DNA of 64,000 nucleotides from Escherichia phage phiP4, in sequence record PP993145.1; one strand, written 5' to 3'. The number at the start of each line of letters is the position of its first letter. The stretch's first letter is position 1. Under the pieces are notes generated by a model. The model ran no database searches and was not told where the DNA came from. It saw only the letters and a list, made by a program, of their open reading frames with translations. This document shows, piece by piece, positions 21,038 to 33,075 of this stretch. Position numbers and translations under genes: made by a program.

Positions 21038-21113
21038 TGGAGCGGCTAGAGGGAATCGAACCCTACTCAGCGAGGCTTGGAAGGCCTGCGACACAACCCG
21101 TGTGCTTAACCGC
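21038..21113 (-). tRNA. tRNA-Gly (anticodon TCC)
   Basis: Hand fold: acceptor GCGGTTA/TAGCCGC, anticodon loop CTTCCAA, CCA. Confidence 0.6.
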
Positions 21114-21121
21114 TTATTATT

Positions 21122-21817: not shown

Positions 21818-22186
21818 AATTGAAAACTCGCAGGGTTAGCGAAACCTTCCTCAATTAGCATGTTCTAGAATACTAATCAAGTTATCTCCTATTGCACGCA
21901 GCTCAAGACGAGTACGAATTTTCAATTGTGGCGGCTCTCAGAAACTCTTCTACTCTAGCTTTAGCAGCTTACTCCCGAACGCATGTCGGGGAAGTCTTAC
22001 CAAGAGCATCAAATAGCACCGTTACACTTTGAGCCATAGATGTATCAAGAAGCAGAAGGATTTGAACCTTCACGAGATAGACCAGTTATCTCAGCCGCTT
22101 TATGAGGTATGTTGCAGGGAGTGGATGTTCCCTATAAACCTTTTAGGCAGCCCCGTCTACCGATTCCGGCATACTTCAAGAATTTT

Positions 22187-27867: not shown

Positions 27868-27945
27868 TGGTGGCTCCCCGAGGATTCGAACCTACGTACC
27901 TTCCGGTTATGAGCCGGGTGCTCATACCATATGAGCTTGAGAACC
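27868..27945 (-). tRNA. tRNA with anticodon CAT (third CAT tRNA; Met or Ile2), imperfect T-stem
   Basis: Hand fold: acceptor GGTTCTC/GGGAGCC, D-arm GCTC/GAGC, anticodon loop CTCATAA, CCA. Confidence 0.5.
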
Positions 27946-30268: not shown

Positions 30269-30463
30269 ATGTGTTGCAGAAAATCTGTTTCGTGCTGCCC
30301 AATGCCTGTAACACGTTGTTGCTCTCCAGCAATGTTTACGCAAATACCGGCGTTCAATCCGTTTGCCTTTAAACCTATTCTTATCCTGCCCCCTAGAGTA
30401 GATTTTCAGTCAAGATTGGCCTCCCGTATGGGTGGTTGCTGTACACCGAGAGTGTGGTTCTAA
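30269..30463 (+). CDS. Cys-rich small protein (64 aa)
   Basis: AGGAGG RBS upstream; multiple CC pairs. Confidence 0.45.
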   Translation: MCCRKSVSCCPMPVTRCCSPAMFTQIPAFNPFAFKPILILPPRVDFQSRLASRMGGCCTPRVWF

Positions 30464-30477
30464 ACCAAAAAACAAAA

Positions 30478-30510
30478 GCCCCTGCCGAAAGGTAAGGGGC
30501 TTTTTCTTTT
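30478..30510 (+). terminator. rho-independent terminator (GCCCCT ... AGGGGC + T-run)
   Basis: GC stem followed by TTTTTCTTTT. Confidence 0.6.
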
Positions 30511-30518
30511 GCCTTAAA

Positions 30519-30554
30519 TACAGAAAAGCCCGCGCTCTCGGAGGAAACGCGGGC
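30519..30554 (-). terminator. rho-independent terminator for the minus-strand SPFH gene (GCCCGCG ... CGCGGGC + U-run)
   Basis: GC stem followed on minus strand by TTTTCTG. Confidence 0.6.
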
Positions 30555-30579
30555 TTGGTTCGAAGATTACGTGTAACTA

Positions 30580-31527
30580 TTACTTGTTACGCATATCCAT
30601 GATCATTTGACCATCGTAGCCAGTACCTACCACAGTCTGAGGCACACCACCTTGATACTTCTGAGCACGAATCATTTCAACTTCCAGTTGCTTCCAGCGA
30701 ATCATCTCAGGAGTAATGGTACGTTGCAATGCGGCGTTAGCTTCAGCTTCTTTTTTAGCTGCGTACAGTTTAGCATCTGCGTCACGTTCGTTAGCAATAG
30801 CCTGGTTATTACGGGCTTCACGGTCTGCTTCTGCCTGTTTAACTTTTTGCTGTGCTTCTTGTTCAACACGAGCCAACTCAGCTTTTGCAGCATTAACTTG
30901 CTCTTCACGAACTTTGGTATTCTGTACCTGTTCCATGATTACTGGTGGCAGAGTAATATCCTGAAGGAATACCTGCTTAACTGTGTAACCATATGGGCGT
31001 GCATACTCTTCAACTTCTTGTTGAATTGCAGTTTGCAATTGAGCCTGAATTTTAGCATCAAACAAATCTTGTGCTTTAGGTACAGACTTACCAAACTCAC
31101 GAATAGTAGACAGTAATTTTTCAGTTACATATTTGTCTAACGCTTGATCCTGAGTACCCGCATTAATACGGTTAATCGGTGCCTTAGAACCATCAAACTG
31201 CAACATAACAGTCAGGTCAACAGTGGATTTAAACTTATCCTGGCTAGGAACCTGAAGTTTATCTAATTTTACAGCAATATCTTTTGTACTAAAAGTATCG
31301 AAAGATGCAAATGGGTTTACAAGATGGAAACCCGGTAATACTGGGTTAGGATCTACTTTACCCAGAAATGTTTGGGTTTTAACCGTACCATCAGAAACAA
31401 TAGTATATGAATTAAAGGCTAGAATCAAGCCTGCTAAACCAACTACAGCACCAATACCCCAACGTTTAATAGTACGAATTACTTTCTGCTCAGAAGTCAG
31501 TTCTTTCATATTTTTAGTATTAAACAT
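30580..31527 (-). CDS. SPFH/band-7 (stomatin/prohibitin/HflK-C-like) membrane protein (315 aa)
   Basis: N-terminal TM segment, SPFH-like core, C-terminal Ala/Glu/Gln-rich coiled coil. Confidence 0.65.
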   Translation of the reverse strand: MFNTKNMKELTSEQKVIRTIKRWGIGAVVGLAGLILAFNSYTIVSDGTVKTQTFLGKVDPNPVLPGFHLVNPFASFDTFSTKDIAVKLDKLQVPSQDKFKSTVDLTVMLQFDGSKAPINRINAGTQDQALDKYVTEKLLSTIREFGKSVPKAQDLFDAKIQAQLQTAIQQEVEEYARPYGYTVKQVFLQDITLPPVIMEQVQNTKVREEQVNAAKAELARVEQEAQQKVKQAEADREARNNQAIANERDADAKLYAAKKEAEANAALQRTITPEMIRWKQLEVEMIRAQKYQGGVPQTVVGTGYDGQMIMDMRNK

Positions 31528-31561: not shown

Positions 31562-31636
31562 TGGCCGAGGTGACAGGATTCGAACCTGCATAAAGGAATT
31601 TAGAAGACTCCTGCCTCTCCCTTAGACTACACCCCG
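31562..31636 (-). tRNA. tRNA-Arg (anticodon TCT)
   Basis: Hand fold: acceptor CGGGGTG/CACCTCG, anticodon loop CTTCTAA, CCA. Confidence 0.65.
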
Positions 31637-32138
31637 TTTAAGTATTTTTAAGAACTCTCGTAAAAACTCTTAAAAATACAGACGATACCGGGAGAGTCAT
31701 AAGTCTCACTCATTAAGTATTTCAAGACAAAATACAGTAACGTCTATTATTTTCCAGTTTAAGTCAAGGTGACTTAGTGGTTATGTCCTGCGGTATATTG
31801 AGGACTCGGTTAGGCTTGGGGTCATGACTTCCCGCCTTTTGCTGCTACTCAACAGGAGTTATCGCGAATTACCTGTGCTATTGTGCACCATTAGTGACAT
31901 CTCTCATGTCAGCATTTCCCACTTTGTGGATAGCTTGAAAAACTACTCCGATATGGAGAAAGAACTTCACTATCCTAGAATACCTTCTAAAGTTCTTCTT
32001 TAGCCTGGACATAGTTAAATCGTAATAAAACTATTCAGCAGACTGGTTGGTTAGTCTGGAACCAACTACCGCGTGGTTTAGGCAGTGCGCAACTAACCTC
32101 GGAAGCTTTTACGTTAAAAGCATCAGTTATCCAGTTCT

Positions 32139-32210
32139 TACCGACCGTAGGATTCGAACCTACATCTTCCACCAGTTACGGCTTGATAATACCAATTATA
32201 CTAGGACGGC
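32139..32210 (-). other. tRNA-like element with acceptor and perfect T-arm but no recognisable anticodon arm
   Basis: T-arm GTAGG-TTCGAAT-CCTAC; acceptor 6/7 paired; no CCA. Confidence 0.3.
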
Positions 32211-32470
32211 AGTGTTACTACATAAGTGATTTCCACACCCCACTATTTATAAATTAGAGAAGAGTTTAAGGGAGAGGTTTCAGACGCCTCATTTTACACG
32301 TTCTAGCCACTAACCGGGATTGCCGCCCCCTGTGTACTAGTTTTACAACTAACCCACCGACTCTATTCAATGCGCTCCGGTTGGGATTCTGCACTCAGCG
32401 TAATCGGCTCGCTGTTCCCTAATTTATGAATATATTATACATAATTTATAAGCATTTAGCAAATGAATTT

Positions 32471-32905
32471 TTAGAAAAATTCACTAGCAATCAAAGCAGT
32501 TGTTTTACCGTCATAACGTCCAGGAAATTCTGCCTTAATAGTTTTCATTAAAAGAGCTTTGGTAATTCCTGGATTTAATTTAACCAGTTCTGCAAAATAC
32601 TCACGAATTTCAGTTTCAGTCAGTTGACTTGGCTGATACTCTTGCAGCATGGAATAAAGCAGTTGCTCATAGTCTACATCAGTAGGAACTTTCATACCAA
32701 CTTTAATAGCGCGCTGTTTTGCATTTTCTAGAGCCTTAATCTGAGCTTTCAGATAGGCTACGAACTCGGTTCGAGTAACAATGTCTTTATCAATACGTTG
32801 CAGATCACCAATCATGGTCTGAAGATTAAGTGCCCGCTCTTTATCACCGTGAGTACGTGCTAGACTAAGCAGTCCACGAAGGGTCATTAGGATATTTTCA
32901 CCCAT
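32471..32905 (-). CDS. hypothetical protein (144 aa)
   Basis: ORF track. Confidence 0.5.
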   Translation of the reverse strand: MGENILMTLRGLLSLARTHGDKERALNLQTMIGDLQRIDKDIVTRTEFVAYLKAQIKALENAKQRAIKVGMKVPTDVDYEQLLYSMLQEYQPSQLTETEIREYFAELVKLNPGITKALLMKTIKAEFPGRYDGKTTALIASEFF

Positions 32906-33075
32906 TATTTCATCCCCAATGCTTGGTTAAAAGATTGTTCTGTCATAACTGCTGAGACTTTGGCGAAATCAAACTTTTTAGGGTTCGTAGTGATTTCAGC
33001 AACGTTAGAAGTTTTAACAGTTTTCGTAGTACGAATACCGCGAGTGTTAACACCAATAATTACAACTGATTTCAT
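32905..33075 (-). CDS. small hypothetical protein (about 56 aa, below track threshold)
   Basis: Hand-translated ORF with GAGAGG RBS, promoter at 33107 upstream, ATGA overlap with next gene. Confidence 0.4.
   Translation of the reverse strand: MKSVVIIGVNTRGIRTTKTVKTSNVAEITTNPKKFDFAKVSAVMTEQSFNQALGMK

What the first reader, a model, noticed from the sequence alone, without database searches (positions are those of the whole stretch)
31637..32470. About 830 bp without any ORF of 60 aa or more, containing a tRNA-like element
This is unusually long for a genome otherwise packed with overlapping genes. It holds a T-arm/acceptor element (32139..32210) and GC-richer segments, and is flanked by tRNA-Arg and a promoter at about 32440. 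It may encode one or more stable non-coding RNAs.
Basis: seen in the sequence. Interest (0 to 1): 0.65.

Follow-up and report, generated by a model that had tools for sequence, protein, structure and literature searches.

The report
Phage T5 "RNAX": large structured RNA
The ORF-free gap is the gene for RNAX, a roughly 790-base stable non-coding RNA that T5 GenBank records already list with unknown function; comparison with relatives shows a conserved multi-domain folded RNA with a non-decoding tRNA-shaped module.

Summary
Window 31637..32470 has no credible ORF. It holds a tRNA-shaped element (32139..32210, minus strand) and lies between tRNA-Arg and a sigma-70 promoter.

It is not new as a feature. 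Records from the T5 sequencing laboratory annotate exactly this interval as misc_RNA rnaX, "stable RNA with unknown functions". These are phage 5 (99.3% identical), BF23, T5 RefSeq and DT57C.

The comparative analysis adds the following:
- The whole interval is one modular structured RNA with its own promoter. It is conserved in Tequintavirus, Epseptimavirus, Klebsiella Sugarlandvirus and Enterobacter phage KKP_3711.
- Domain I is a 5' domain closed by a stem that starts at the inferred transcription start.
- Domain II is a tRNA-like cloverleaf, a hairpin and a candidate pseudoknot.
- Domain III is a 3' domain of covarying helices that carry invariant loops. One loop contains the self-complementary GUCAUGAC.
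- A terminal AU hairpin abuts tRNA-Arg.

Compensatory changes support the helices. The small ORFs decay in relatives. The tRNA-like element has no 7-nt anticodon loop and no encoded CCA, whereas all 22 real tRNAs here encode CCA.

The region is missing from the viable T5 st0 deletion mutant. Function remains unknown. The closest analogues are the GOLLD and ROOL RNAs of phage tRNA islands, but this RNA is not a member of either family.

The parts
32434..32462 (-). Sigma-70 early promoter ('P16-17' in T5, BF23 and phage 5 records): TTGCTA, 17-nt spacer, TATAAT
   Evidence: Consensus scan, 10 of 12 positions. Annotated as promoter P16-17 in AJ604531, NC_005859 and NC_042564. Conserved upstream of the RNA in every lineage, including Klebsiella phages at 81% identity.
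32247..32427 (-). RNAX domain I. It is closed by a stem between AUAAAUUAGGGAA (32427..32415, starting at the inferred transcription start) and UUCUCUAAUUUAU (32261..32249). It contains the hairpin CAGCG-AGCCGAUUA-CGCUG (32414..32396), the block GAAUAGAGUCGGUG (32368..32355, a candidate pseudoknot partner of that loop), and the hairpin GAGG-CGUCUGAAA-CCUC (32290..32274).
   Evidence: Conserved blocks in 29 distinct sequences. The closing stem of 12-14 bp can form in all 17 lineages tested, at -8.6 to -17.2 kcal/mol against about -5 for shuffles. The GAGG/CCUC hairpin covaries (GCGG/CCGC, GUGG/CCAC). The P2 hairpin and the pseudoknot are invariant, so covariation cannot test them. The domain is reduced to a small hairpin in T5 and DT57C and replaced by an HNH gene in S147 and vaffelhjerte.
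32211..32245 (-). Conserved 'box' UAGUGGGGUG..ACUUAUGUAGUAACACU, the leader of the tRNA-like module. Its GUGG may pair with the CCAC at 32069..32080.
   Evidence: Nearly invariant in 39 distinct sequences. The only variant, KKP_3711 with AUGG, is matched by CCAU in the partner. That is one compensatory event.
32139..32210 (-). tRNA-shaped module that does not decode. It has acceptor, D and T arms. The 'anticodon arm' is a 3-bp stem with a 6-nt loop. No CCA is encoded.
   Evidence: Rfam RF00005 scores 35.5 bits with the anticodon arm unaligned. The minimum-energy fold is a cloverleaf. Covariation in all arms: 87.4% of cells paired, 10 pairs with double changes against 0-3 in slid controls. The arm varies in length and sequence among relatives. 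All 22 real tRNAs of the window encode CCA and this element does not. T5 record AY587007 annotates it as a tRNA pseudogene.
32046..32138 (-). Rest of domain II. It comprises the linker AGAACUGGAUAACUG, hairpin H1 GCUUUU-AACGU-AAAAGC (32121..32105), a candidate H-type pseudoknot (stem GGUUAG/CUGCC with loop UUGCG pairing to CGCGG, 32098..32069) around the invariant UAAACCACGCGG, and the hairpin GUUGGUU..AACCAAC (32066..32046).
   Evidence: H1 covaries (U-A, A-U and C-G at one pair; C-G and G-C at another). The pseudoknot stems and the long-range helix each have one compensatory pair in 6 lineages; 93.9% of cells are paired against 36-44% when slid.
31924..32045 (-). Variable middle segment. Different lineages carry different modules here.
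   Evidence: Alignment of 16 lineages. Part of it (window 31929..32001) recurs in Klebsiella phages and KKP_3711.
31641..31923 (-). RNAX domain III. Its covarying helices include GACAU-GAGAG-AUGUC (31910..31896), CAGG..CCUG (31875..31853), a stem presenting the invariant loop GAAGUCAUGACC (31837..31812), and GUCCU..AGGAC (31805..31785). Its invariant motifs are AUAACCAC (31784..31777), AGUCACCUUGACU (31774..31762) and AACUGGAAAAUA (31759..31748). It ends in a terminal AU-rich 17-bp hairpin (31679..31642).
   Evidence: RNAalifold predicts 65 pairs, 13 of them with compensatory changes. 98.5% of cells are paired, and slid controls give 1-4 compensatory pairs. The motifs are present in 47-48 of 48 distinct sequences. 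The terminal hairpin is found in all 57 loci that were long enough and has z = -3.13. Frequent G-U pairs fix the minus strand as the RNA strand.
31562..31636 (-). tRNA-Arg(UCU), co-transcribed directly downstream. Its 5' processing site would define the 3' end of RNAX.
   Evidence: ARAGORN and Rfam at 49.3 bits. The annotated RNAX ends at the base before this tRNA in AJ604531, NC_005859, NC_042564 and KM979354.

Best explanation
The gap is the gene for RNAX, a long stable non-coding RNA of T5-like phages. It is about 790 nt here, spanning window about 32427 to 31637 on the minus strand.

Shown or annotated:
- It has its own conserved strong early sigma-70 promoter (P16-17).
- It is followed with no terminator by tRNA-Arg and the SPFH/band-7 gene.

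Inferred processing:
- Host RNA polymerase makes a precursor RNAX-tRNA-Arg-mRNA.
- RNase P cleavage at the 5' end of tRNA-Arg releases the 3' end of RNAX. RNase III cutting of the 17-bp terminal hairpin may contribute.
- The 5' end is buried in the closing stem of domain I, which would favour stability.

Shown by comparison: the RNA folds into three modules.
- Domain I is optional in evolution.
- Domain II is a tRNA-shaped cloverleaf with a hairpin and a candidate pseudoknot.
- Domain III is the most conserved. Its covarying stems present invariant loops.

The tRNA-shaped module cannot decode. It has a 6-nt loop on a 3-bp stem whose length varies among relatives, and it has no encoded CCA. It is best read as a structural or tRNA-mimicking arm, or as a processing mark.

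Function (inferred, low confidence): RNAX acts as an RNA in trans during early infection. It is an accessory, dispensable factor of the deletable tRNA / 'anti-defence' island. It most plausibly works as a scaffold or decoy for a tRNA-binding host or phage factor.
For: Identity:
- 99.3% identity over the whole interval to AJ604531, where the interval is misc_RNA rnaX.
- The same annotation appears in T5 RefSeq, BF23 and DT57C.

Transcription unit:
- Promoter found by consensus scan and conserved in all lineages.
- No terminator-like site on the minus strand inside the region.

RNA-level selection:
- Cloverleaf plus H1: 10 pairs with double changes against 0-3 in slid controls.
- Domain III: 13 compensatory pairs and 98.5% of cells paired.
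- Pseudoknot and long-range helix consistent in 6 lineages.
- Invariant single-stranded motifs in 48 of 48 sequences across Tequintavirus, Epseptimavirus, Sugarlandvirus and KKP_3711.
- G-U pairs indicate the minus strand.

Not coding: the ORFs decay in relatives.

Not a working tRNA:
- Anticodon arm unaligned by the Rfam model and variable in relatives.
- No CCA, against 22 of 22 real tRNAs with CCA.
- Replaced by non-tRNA stem-loops in GSW6, L027 and L044.

Dispensable:
- Absent from T5 st0, whose deletion endpoint lies inside the neighbouring YqeY-like gene.
- It lies in the roughly 8-kb deletable island described by Azam et al. 2023.
Against: - No expression data were available here. 'Stable RNA' rests on the depositors' annotation, and I could not find the paper behind it.
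- Thermodynamic stability is unremarkable. Minimum-free-energy z-scores are -1.09 for the sense strand and -0.63 for the antisense strand over the whole RNA. They are -0.67 for the cloverleaf and -0.80 for domain I.
- The main helices of domain I are invariant, so covariation cannot test them.
- The pseudoknot and the long-range helix rest on one compensatory event each.
- The lineages are related and mosaic, so the shuffle controls overstate significance.
- The RNA tolerates loss of domain I (T5), loss of the tRNA-like module (GSW6) and whole deletion (st0). Any function is therefore conditional.
- Nothing here identifies a partner or an activity.
Confidence: 0.8

Rival explanations
1. The region is a cis-acting leader and processing cassette. 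On this view it is a long 5' leader whose folded modules exist only to direct RNase P or RNase III processing, or to set the stability and translation of the downstream tRNA-Arg and SPFH-gene transcript. The tRNA-like module and terminal hairpin would be the processing signals. The 'stable RNA' would be a by-product.
For: - RNAX abuts tRNA-Arg with no terminator.
- The conserved terminal hairpin sits immediately before tRNA-Arg, or before the ribosome-binding site of the next ORF in S147 and the Klebsiella phages.
- Block GAAUAGAGUCGGUG of domain I has two mutually exclusive pairings, a local hairpin or the pseudoknot, as in switches.
Against: - The downstream neighbour differs between lineages. 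It is tRNA-Arg in the window, a 169-aa ORF in S147, and a 108-aa ORF in Klebsiella phages. The RNA and its promoter stay the same.
- About 800-1300 nt of conserved structure with invariant loops is far more than a processing signal needs.
- No attenuator or terminator was found.
Confidence: 0.12
2. RNAX is a self-assembling 'ornate' RNA comparable to GOLLD and ROOL. Copies would associate through the invariant self-complementary loop GUCAUGAC and other loops to form an RNA-only oligomer. The tRNA-shaped module would sit in a linker.
For: - Shared with GOLLD and ROOL as described in PMC12286853: phage-encoded, in a tRNA island, about 0.8 kb or more, with pseudoknots, a conserved 3' region and a variable 5' region. 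tRNAs are sometimes embedded in the GOLLD linker, and kissing loops build the cages.
- In RNAX an 8-nt palindrome sits in a loop on a stem with 4 covarying pairs, and it is invariant in 48 of 48 sequences.
Against: - The Rfam GOLLD and ROOL models give no hit even at E up to 10.
- Self-complementarity of one loop is weak evidence. It could equally bind a dimeric protein.
- No oligomerisation test is possible with these tools.
Confidence: 0.15
3. RNAX is a tRNA-mimic decoy used in anti-defence. The tRNA-shaped module with its flanking domains would titrate or mislead a host tRNA-targeting defence nuclease or a tRNA-modifying or tRNA-charging enzyme.
For: - The region lies in the deletable tRNA region, which carries anti-retron and other anti-defence functions. 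T5 tRNAs there counter PARIS and retron effectors.
- The cloverleaf shape is kept by compensatory changes although decoding features are absent.
Against: - Known tRNA-targeting effectors mostly recognise anticodon loops, which this module lacks.
- The module is replaced by non-tRNA stems in GSW6-type phages.
- None of the phenotypes reported in the passages of Azam et al. that I read maps to this element.
Confidence: 0.12
4. The region is a decayed tRNA gene (pseudogene) surrounded by neutral spacer and scars of homing-endonuclease traffic. No function would be attached to it.
For: - T5 record AY587007 marks the element as a tRNA pseudogene.
- The region is mosaic, with insertions, deletions and HNH genes.
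- It is dispensable in st0.
- Metagenomic variants have damaged D or T arms.
Against: - Compensatory substitutions maintain helices in and far outside the tRNA-like element.
- Motifs of 8-13 nt are invariant across three genera.
- A dedicated promoter is conserved.
Confidence: 0.04
5. The region encodes small proteins. Some annotation pipelines call them, for example 31824..32003 (+, 59 aa) and 32266..32394 (-, 42 aa).
For: These ORFs are annotated as hypothetical proteins in phage MM-1 and others. A 64-aa ORF recurs in Klebsiella phages.
Against: - Nonsynonymous changes far outnumber synonymous ones, for example 6 to 1, 21 to 4 and 16 to 3.
- Frameshifting gaps and stops appear in relatives.
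- The ORFs overlap covarying RNA helices, and the Klebsiella ORF runs into the conserved box.
Confidence: 0.03

Closest known systems
RNAX (gene rnaX) of phages T5, BF23, phage 5 and DT57C, as annotated in GenBank (NC_005859 T5s08, NC_042564, AJ604531, KM979354)
   Same: Same locus, strand and boundaries, from promoter P16-17 to tRNA-Arg. The window is 99.3% identical to the phage 5 copy.
   Different: Nothing differs. This is the same gene. The window carries the long form (about 785 nt, with domain I), like phage 5 and BF23. T5 (719 nt) and DT57C (636 nt) lack domain I, and T5 has an 83-nt duplication-flanked insertion in domain III.
GOLLD and ROOL large ornate RNAs of phages and prophages
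   Same: Phage-encoded, in or next to tRNA islands, several hundred to more than 800 nt, with many helices and pseudoknots. GOLLD has a conserved 3' region, a variable 5' region and sometimes a tRNA in its linker. Function is unknown (PMC12286853).
   Different: There is no similarity to the Rfam models. The hosts differ, being enterobacterial virulent siphoviruses. Oligomerisation is untested.
Other small stable RNAs of phage tRNA clusters: T5 RNAI, RNAIII, RNAIV, RNA1, RNA2 and RNA3, and the T4 species 1 and 2 RNAs (rnaC, rnaD; from my own knowledge)
   Same: Stable RNAs of unknown function, co-transcribed with phage tRNAs. Some are tRNA-like and are presumably matured by the tRNA-processing enzymes.
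   Different: Those are 70-170 nt. RNAX is 4-10 times larger and has multiple domains.
Non-decoding tRNA-like structures: plant-virus 3' TLS, the tmRNA tRNA-like domain, mascRNA of MALAT1, and bacterial or phage YrlA Y-RNA modules (from my own knowledge)
   Same: A tRNA shape retained without decoding, used as a handle for tRNA-specific enzymes or as a processing mark. It is embedded in a larger RNA next to pseudoknots.
   Different: Here the module is internal and has a complete acceptor stem of its own and D and T arms. ARAGORN detects no tmRNA. No Rfam family other than tRNA matches.
tRNA pseudogene
   Same: Derived from a tRNA. It scores above the Rfam tRNA threshold, has a defective anticodon arm, and is annotated as a pseudogene in AY587007.
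   Different: The stems are maintained by compensatory changes across genera, which is not expected of a decaying gene.

Membership tests
T5-group RNAX (GenBank misc_RNA rnaX) | Lies between early promoter P16-17 and tRNA-Arg(UCU), on the same strand as the tRNA cluster | tested here: met
   Promoter at 32462..32434 and tRNA-Arg at 31636..31562, both on the minus strand. Same layout in AJ604531, NC_005859 and NC_042564.
T5-group RNAX (GenBank misc_RNA rnaX) | Sequence homology over the full annotated RNA | tested here: met
   100% coverage and 99.3% identity to AJ604531, under the features rnaX, tRNA-Arg and promoter.
T5-group RNAX (GenBank misc_RNA rnaX) | Accumulates as a stable RNA in infected cells | not testable with these tools
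   Only the depositors' note 'stable RNA with unknown functions' is available. No paper was found in the library.
tRNA (Rfam RF00005) | Cloverleaf with acceptor, D and T arms that scores above the family threshold | tested here: met
   35.5 bits against a gathering score of 29. The arms covary.
tRNA (Rfam RF00005) | 5-bp anticodon stem with a 7-nt loop (U33, anticodon, purine 37) | tested here: not met
   The arm is skipped by the model as an 18-nt local end. The fold gives a 3-bp stem with the 6-nt loop GUAACU. Relatives have 5-nt, 6-nt or 20-nt loops. ARAGORN makes no call in the window, and calls odd anticodons (ACU, UCA) in relatives.
tRNA (Rfam RF00005) | Encoded 3' CCA, as in every bona fide tRNA gene of this genome | tested here: not met
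   22 of 22 tRNAs end in CCA. This element ends ...GGUCGGU-A followed by AGA.
tRNA (Rfam RF00005) | Aminoacylation and use in translation | not testable with these tools
   No data are available.
GOLLD / ROOL ornate RNAs | Match to the family covariance model | tested here: not met
   No GOLLD or ROOL hit at E up to 10 in the window region, or up to 1 in six relatives.
GOLLD / ROOL ornate RNAs | Phage-encoded, in or near a tRNA island, large with many conserved helices and pseudoknots | tested here: met
   The window has 22 tRNAs upstream and tRNA-Arg adjacent. The RNA is about 790 nt here and about 1300 nt in Klebsiella phages. It has covarying helices and a candidate pseudoknot.
GOLLD / ROOL ornate RNAs | Homo-oligomeric RNA-only assembly | not testable with these tools
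   The only hint is the invariant self-complementary loop GUCAUGAC.
tmRNA | Split tRNA-like domain plus a tag-peptide reading frame | tested here: not met
   ARAGORN, which searches for tmRNA, reports none. There is no Rfam tmRNA hit.
Riboswitch / transcription-attenuating leader | Sensor domain coupled to a terminator or an RBS-sequestering expression platform | tested here: inconclusive
   No terminator-like site on the minus strand within the region. No Rfam riboswitch hit. Domain I has two alternative pairings for one block, but no expression platform was identified.

The most novel reading that the evidence does not exclude
RNAX would be a third, independent class of giant 'ornate' phage RNA associated with tRNA islands, alongside GOLLD and ROOL. 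It would be a multi-domain RNA of about 0.65-1.3 kb that works without translation. It might self-associate through its invariant palindromic loop, and it would use an embedded tRNA-shaped arm to engage tRNA-handling machinery or tRNA-targeting host immunity. Because T5 and E. coli are genetically tractable, the function of such RNAs would become directly testable.
Probability: 0.2. Interest if true: 0.8.

Novelty: already known. Interest (0 to 1): 0.5.

Why it matters
As a feature this is ordinary. The T5 RefSeq record already lists it.

It still matters because RNAX has stayed 'function unknown' since those records were deposited. This analysis shows it is not a leftover spacer. It is a conserved, multi-domain folded RNA found in hundreds of T5-like phages of Escherichia, Salmonella, Klebsiella and Enterobacter.

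Many annotation pipelines instead place hypothetical proteins, 'tRNA-OTHER', 'tRNA-Ser', 'tRNA-Sec' or 'tRNA-Pro' on it. No Rfam family covers it.

Large structured phage RNAs next to tRNA islands, such as GOLLD and ROOL, are an open problem. A counterpart in the best-studied tRNA-rich coliphage would offer an experimental handle on that problem.

Tried and rejected
- **Thermodynamic signal.** Minimum-free-energy z-scores of the whole RNA, domain I, the cloverleaf and single hairpins are not significant, apart from the terminal hairpin. I did not use them as evidence.
- **RNAalifold on domain I.** It recovered only invariant helices and an alternative local hairpin. Variable inserts spoil the alignment. 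The domain I pseudoknot therefore remains a proposal.
- **A 3-bp hairpin inside the conserved box.** Two registers are each supported by only some lineages, so I dropped it (reading).
- **Homologues outside T5-like phages.**
  - The box pattern gave 0 hits in 185,579 species genomes.
  - It gave 11 metagenome contigs, none differing from the T5-like variants already in hand.
  - The domain III motif gave 3 genome hits and 3 viral contigs that share nothing else and fit chance.
  - The domain I motif hit only the same T5-like contigs.
- **Link to the neighbouring YqeY-like, putatively tRNA-binding gene.** The gene occurs in Proteus, Providencia and Pectobacterium phages, where neither RNAX BLAST search found more than short fragments. 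It is missing from nearly all Klebsiella phages that have RNAX. So there is no co-occurrence.
- **Literature.** No paper on RNAX was found in the library.
- **Repeats.** The terminal hairpin and the palindromic loop are not repeated elsewhere in the window.
- **One malformed pattern search** of the fetched loci gave nothing useful.
Full report
**What the window is.** The window is a Tequintavirus (T5-like phage) genome segment. It carries 22 tRNA genes on the minus strand. The queried region is 99% or more identical to many T5-like phages of Escherichia and Salmonella.

**Checking the observation.** The stretch 31637..32470 has no ORF of 60 aa or more, with one exception. That is a TTG-started ORF of exactly 60 aa lying antisense across the tRNA-like element.
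- It is bounded by tRNA-Arg(UCU) at 31562..31636 (minus strand) and by a minus-strand promoter, TTGCTA-17-TATAAT, at 32462..32434.
- The Rfam tRNA model hits 32139..32210 (minus strand) at 35.5 bits, above the gathering score of 29. The anticodon arm is left unaligned, and ARAGORN makes no call.
- GC content rises to 0.44-0.465 inside the region, against 0.30-0.37 in the flanks.
- ORF-lessness is not a statistical anomaly. Shuffled copies give a mean longest ORF of 64 aa. The region simply behaves as non-coding DNA in a dense genome. At an 80-aa threshold it is the third-longest ORF-free stretch of the window, after two tRNA clusters.

**Already annotated.** A sensitive BLAST found AJ604531 ('Bacteriophage 5 tRNA gene region') at 99.3% identity over the whole query.
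- The features under the match are 'rnaX: RNAX', tRNA-Arg and a promoter.
- That record annotates a 785-nt misc_RNA, 'stable RNA with unknown functions'. It runs from promoter P16-17 to the base before tRNA-Arg.
- The same feature is in T5 RefSeq NC_005859 (T5s08, 719 nt), BF23 (784 nt) and DT57C (636 nt).
- T5 RefSeq lists eight such stable RNAs. The other seven are 73-172 nt.
- Another T5 record marks the cloverleaf as a tRNA pseudogene.
- Automated pipelines label it tRNA-OTHER, tRNA-Ser, tRNA-Sec or tRNA-Pro, and place hypothetical proteins on the region.
- I found no paper on RNAX in the library.

**Comparative data set.** I collected the homologous interval from annotated phage records, IMG/VR and metagenomes. 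Together with a few chance motif matches that were set aside, this gave 80 fetched loci. They yielded about 48 distinct RNAX sequences. They cover Tequintavirus, Epseptimavirus, Klebsiella Sugarlandvirus and Enterobacter phage KKP_3711.
- The region is a mosaic of modules.
- The order is constant: own promoter, 5' domain, tRNA-like core, 3' domain, terminal AU hairpin, then tRNA-Arg or inserted ORFs.

**Domain I (32427..32247).**
- It starts at the inferred transcription start. By analogy with the T5 PN25 promoter's initial transcribed sequence AUAAAUUUGAGAG (my own knowledge), I place +1 at about 32427. The GenBank feature starts at 32421.
- The first 13 nt pair with 32261..32249. This 12-14-bp closing stem can form in all 17 lineages tested.
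- Inside are an invariant hairpin CAGCG-AGCCGAUUA-CGCUG and a block GAAUAGAGUCGGUG that could pair with that loop as a pseudoknot. These helices never vary, so covariation cannot test them.
- There are also variable hairpins, and a hairpin GAGG-CGUCUGAAA-CCUC that covaries.
- T5 and DT57C have lost the interior of this domain and keep only a small hairpin.
- S147 and vaffelhjerte carry an HNH_3 endonuclease gene in its place.

**Domain II (32245..32046).**
- It has a nearly invariant leader box, the cloverleaf, the linker AGAACUGGAUAACUG, hairpin H1 and a candidate H-type pseudoknot around the invariant UAAACCACGCGG.
- On 22 sequences the cloverleaf and H1 are 87.4% paired. Ten pairs have changes on both sides, against 0-3 when the partners are slid. 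Examples:
  - The window's U5xU68 mismatch is A-U in T5 and U-A in L032.
  - T-stem pairs switch between U-A and C-G, and between A-U and G-C.
  - The D stem is completely re-paired in the Torridgeon type.
- The 'anticodon arm' is only a hairpin of changing size:
  - GCC-GUAACU-GGU in the window
  - GGC-GUAACU-GCC in KKP_3711
  - CACCGG-CGAUC-CCGGUG in EK80
  - a 5-bp stem with a 20-nt loop holding a further hairpin in Torridgeon and L060
- No CCA is encoded, whereas all 22 genuine tRNAs of the window encode it.
- In GSW6, L027 and L044 the cloverleaf is replaced by non-tRNA stem-loops inside the same closing stem.
- So the element is tRNA-derived in shape, is under selection for shape, and does not decode.
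- The pseudoknot stems, and a long-range helix between the box GUGG and the CCAC, each show one compensatory change in six lineages. In KKP_3711 these read AUGG and CCAU. This is consistent but thin.

**Domain III (31923..31641).** This is the best-supported part.
- RNAalifold on 12 sequences gives 65 pairs, 13 with compensatory changes.
- Counted against controls, 98.5% of cells pair, and slid controls give 1-4 compensatory pairs. One caveat is that the structure was derived from this same alignment.
- Covarying stems present sequence motifs that are invariant in 47-48 of 48 distinct sequences. These are (G/A)AGUCAUGACC, AUAACCAC, AGUCACCNUGACU and AACUGGARRAUA.
- The first motif is a loop containing the 8-nt self-complementary GUCAUGAC, on a stem with four covarying pairs.
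- The domain ends in a 17-bp AU-rich hairpin found in all 57 loci long enough to include it, with z = -3.13.
- Many G-U pairs show that the minus strand is the RNA strand.

**Not coding.** For the four largest ORFs, substitutions in relatives are overwhelmingly nonsynonymous. Frameshifting gaps and stop codons also occur.

**Not another known RNA family.** Rfam at permissive thresholds finds only tRNA, both in the window and in six relatives. Pattern scans of one genome for each of 185,579 bacterial and archaeal species find no counterpart. The three hits to a 19-base motif share nothing else and match the number expected by chance.

**Dispensability and context.**
- The region is absent from the viable T5 st0 deletion mutant. 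The annotated recombination site of that deletion lies inside the adjacent YqeY-like gene.
- It lies in the roughly 8-kb deletable tRNA region that Azam et al. call an anti-defence island.
- The neighbouring YqeY-like gene scores 20.8 bits against PF09424, below the cut-off. It does not co-occur with RNAX across genera.

**How it most likely works.**
- Shown or annotated: a conserved promoter, a folded multi-domain RNA on the minus strand, and direct abutment to tRNA-Arg.
- Inferred:
  - Early transcription by host RNA polymerase.
  - Release of the 3' end by RNase P at tRNA-Arg, possibly with RNase III at the terminal hairpin.
  - Protection of the 5' end by the closing stem.
  - Action in trans as an accessory RNA.
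- The specific role is open. I rank scaffold or decoy for a tRNA-binding factor as most plausible. A GOLLD/ROOL-like self-assembling RNA and a purely cis-acting processing leader are the main alternatives.

**Comparison with GOLLD and ROOL.** They share the ecological niche, the size class, a variable 5' with a conserved 3' architecture, and occasional embedded tRNAs (PMC12286853). RNAX fails their covariance models, so it is an analogue and not a member.

**Verdict.** The feature is already known as RNAX. The new content is its domain anatomy, the covariation support, the non-decoding nature of the cloverleaf and its spread across genera. Its function is still unknown.

Noticed in passing
window 27871..27945 (-), 21041..21114 (-), 22047..22178 (-): The Rfam tRNA-clan models hit three further places that ARAGORN did not call: 40.3 bits, 30.9 bits (tRNA-Sec model) and 26.5 bits. 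By position, the first looks like the counterpart of the tRNA annotated beside tRNA-Ser(GCU) in T5 (tRNA-Ile2(CAU) in RefSeq). The others may correspond to a T5 tRNA or to the 'tRNA-like stable RNAs' RNA1, RNA2 and RNA3 annotated in T5 RefSeq.
   Followed up: no
L015 (Salmonella phage S147) 2383..2880 (-); the same ORF (160 aa from the first ATG) in L018 (vaffelhjerte): An HNH_3 homing-endonuclease gene (annotated as 165 aa, Pfam E = 2.8e-12) sits directly after the RNAX promoter, exactly where domain I lies in the window. This suggests endonuclease-driven replacement of an RNA domain.
   Followed up: partly
L015 1286..1795 (-); also L013, L014 and L019: A conserved ORF of 158-169 aa with no Pfam match is inserted between the RNAX terminal hairpin and tRNA-Arg in Epseptimavirus phages and KKP_3711. 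It has its own ribosome-binding site right after the hairpin.
   Followed up: partly
window 32471..32905 (-): The upstream gene, annotated 'tRNA amidotransferase' or 'recombination-related exonuclease' in various records, matches only the YqeY family weakly (20.8 bits, below the cut-off of 27). Alleles only 62-63% identical sit next to RNAX copies that are 98-99% identical, which shows recombination at this boundary.
   Followed up: partly
window 30437..30619: Weak Rfam hits to many unrelated leader and sRNA families pile up here on both strands. This coincides with the 'efficient bidirectional rho-independent terminator' annotated in T5 and phage 5.
   Followed up: no
L006 / L078 (T5 wild type), domain III: T5 carries an extra segment of about 83 nt, flanked by a duplication of AGUCACCUUGAC-UAAACUGGAA. 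Metagenome contig L059 has a 3' domain of nearly the same length (521 nt against 517 nt in T5), but I did not inspect its sequence.
   Followed up: no
L066, L064 (metagenome contigs): Natural variants of the cloverleaf have a 10-nt deletion of the D arm (L066) or a mutated T loop (UUCGAAUAC, L064). This shows the module tolerates damage in some populations.
   Followed up: no
L020-L025 (Klebsiella Sugarlandvirus phages), about 1300 nt downstream of the endolysin gene: The RNAX homologue is about 1.3 kb. It has extra modules between domains I and II and inside domain III. Annotators place up to five hypothetical proteins and a 'tRNA-Pro' on it.
   Followed up: partly
window 32905..33075 (-): The 56-aa ORF upstream of the YqeY-like gene is a full-length match to Pfam DUF7616 (E = 4.7e-33), so it is a real small protein gene.
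   Followed up: no
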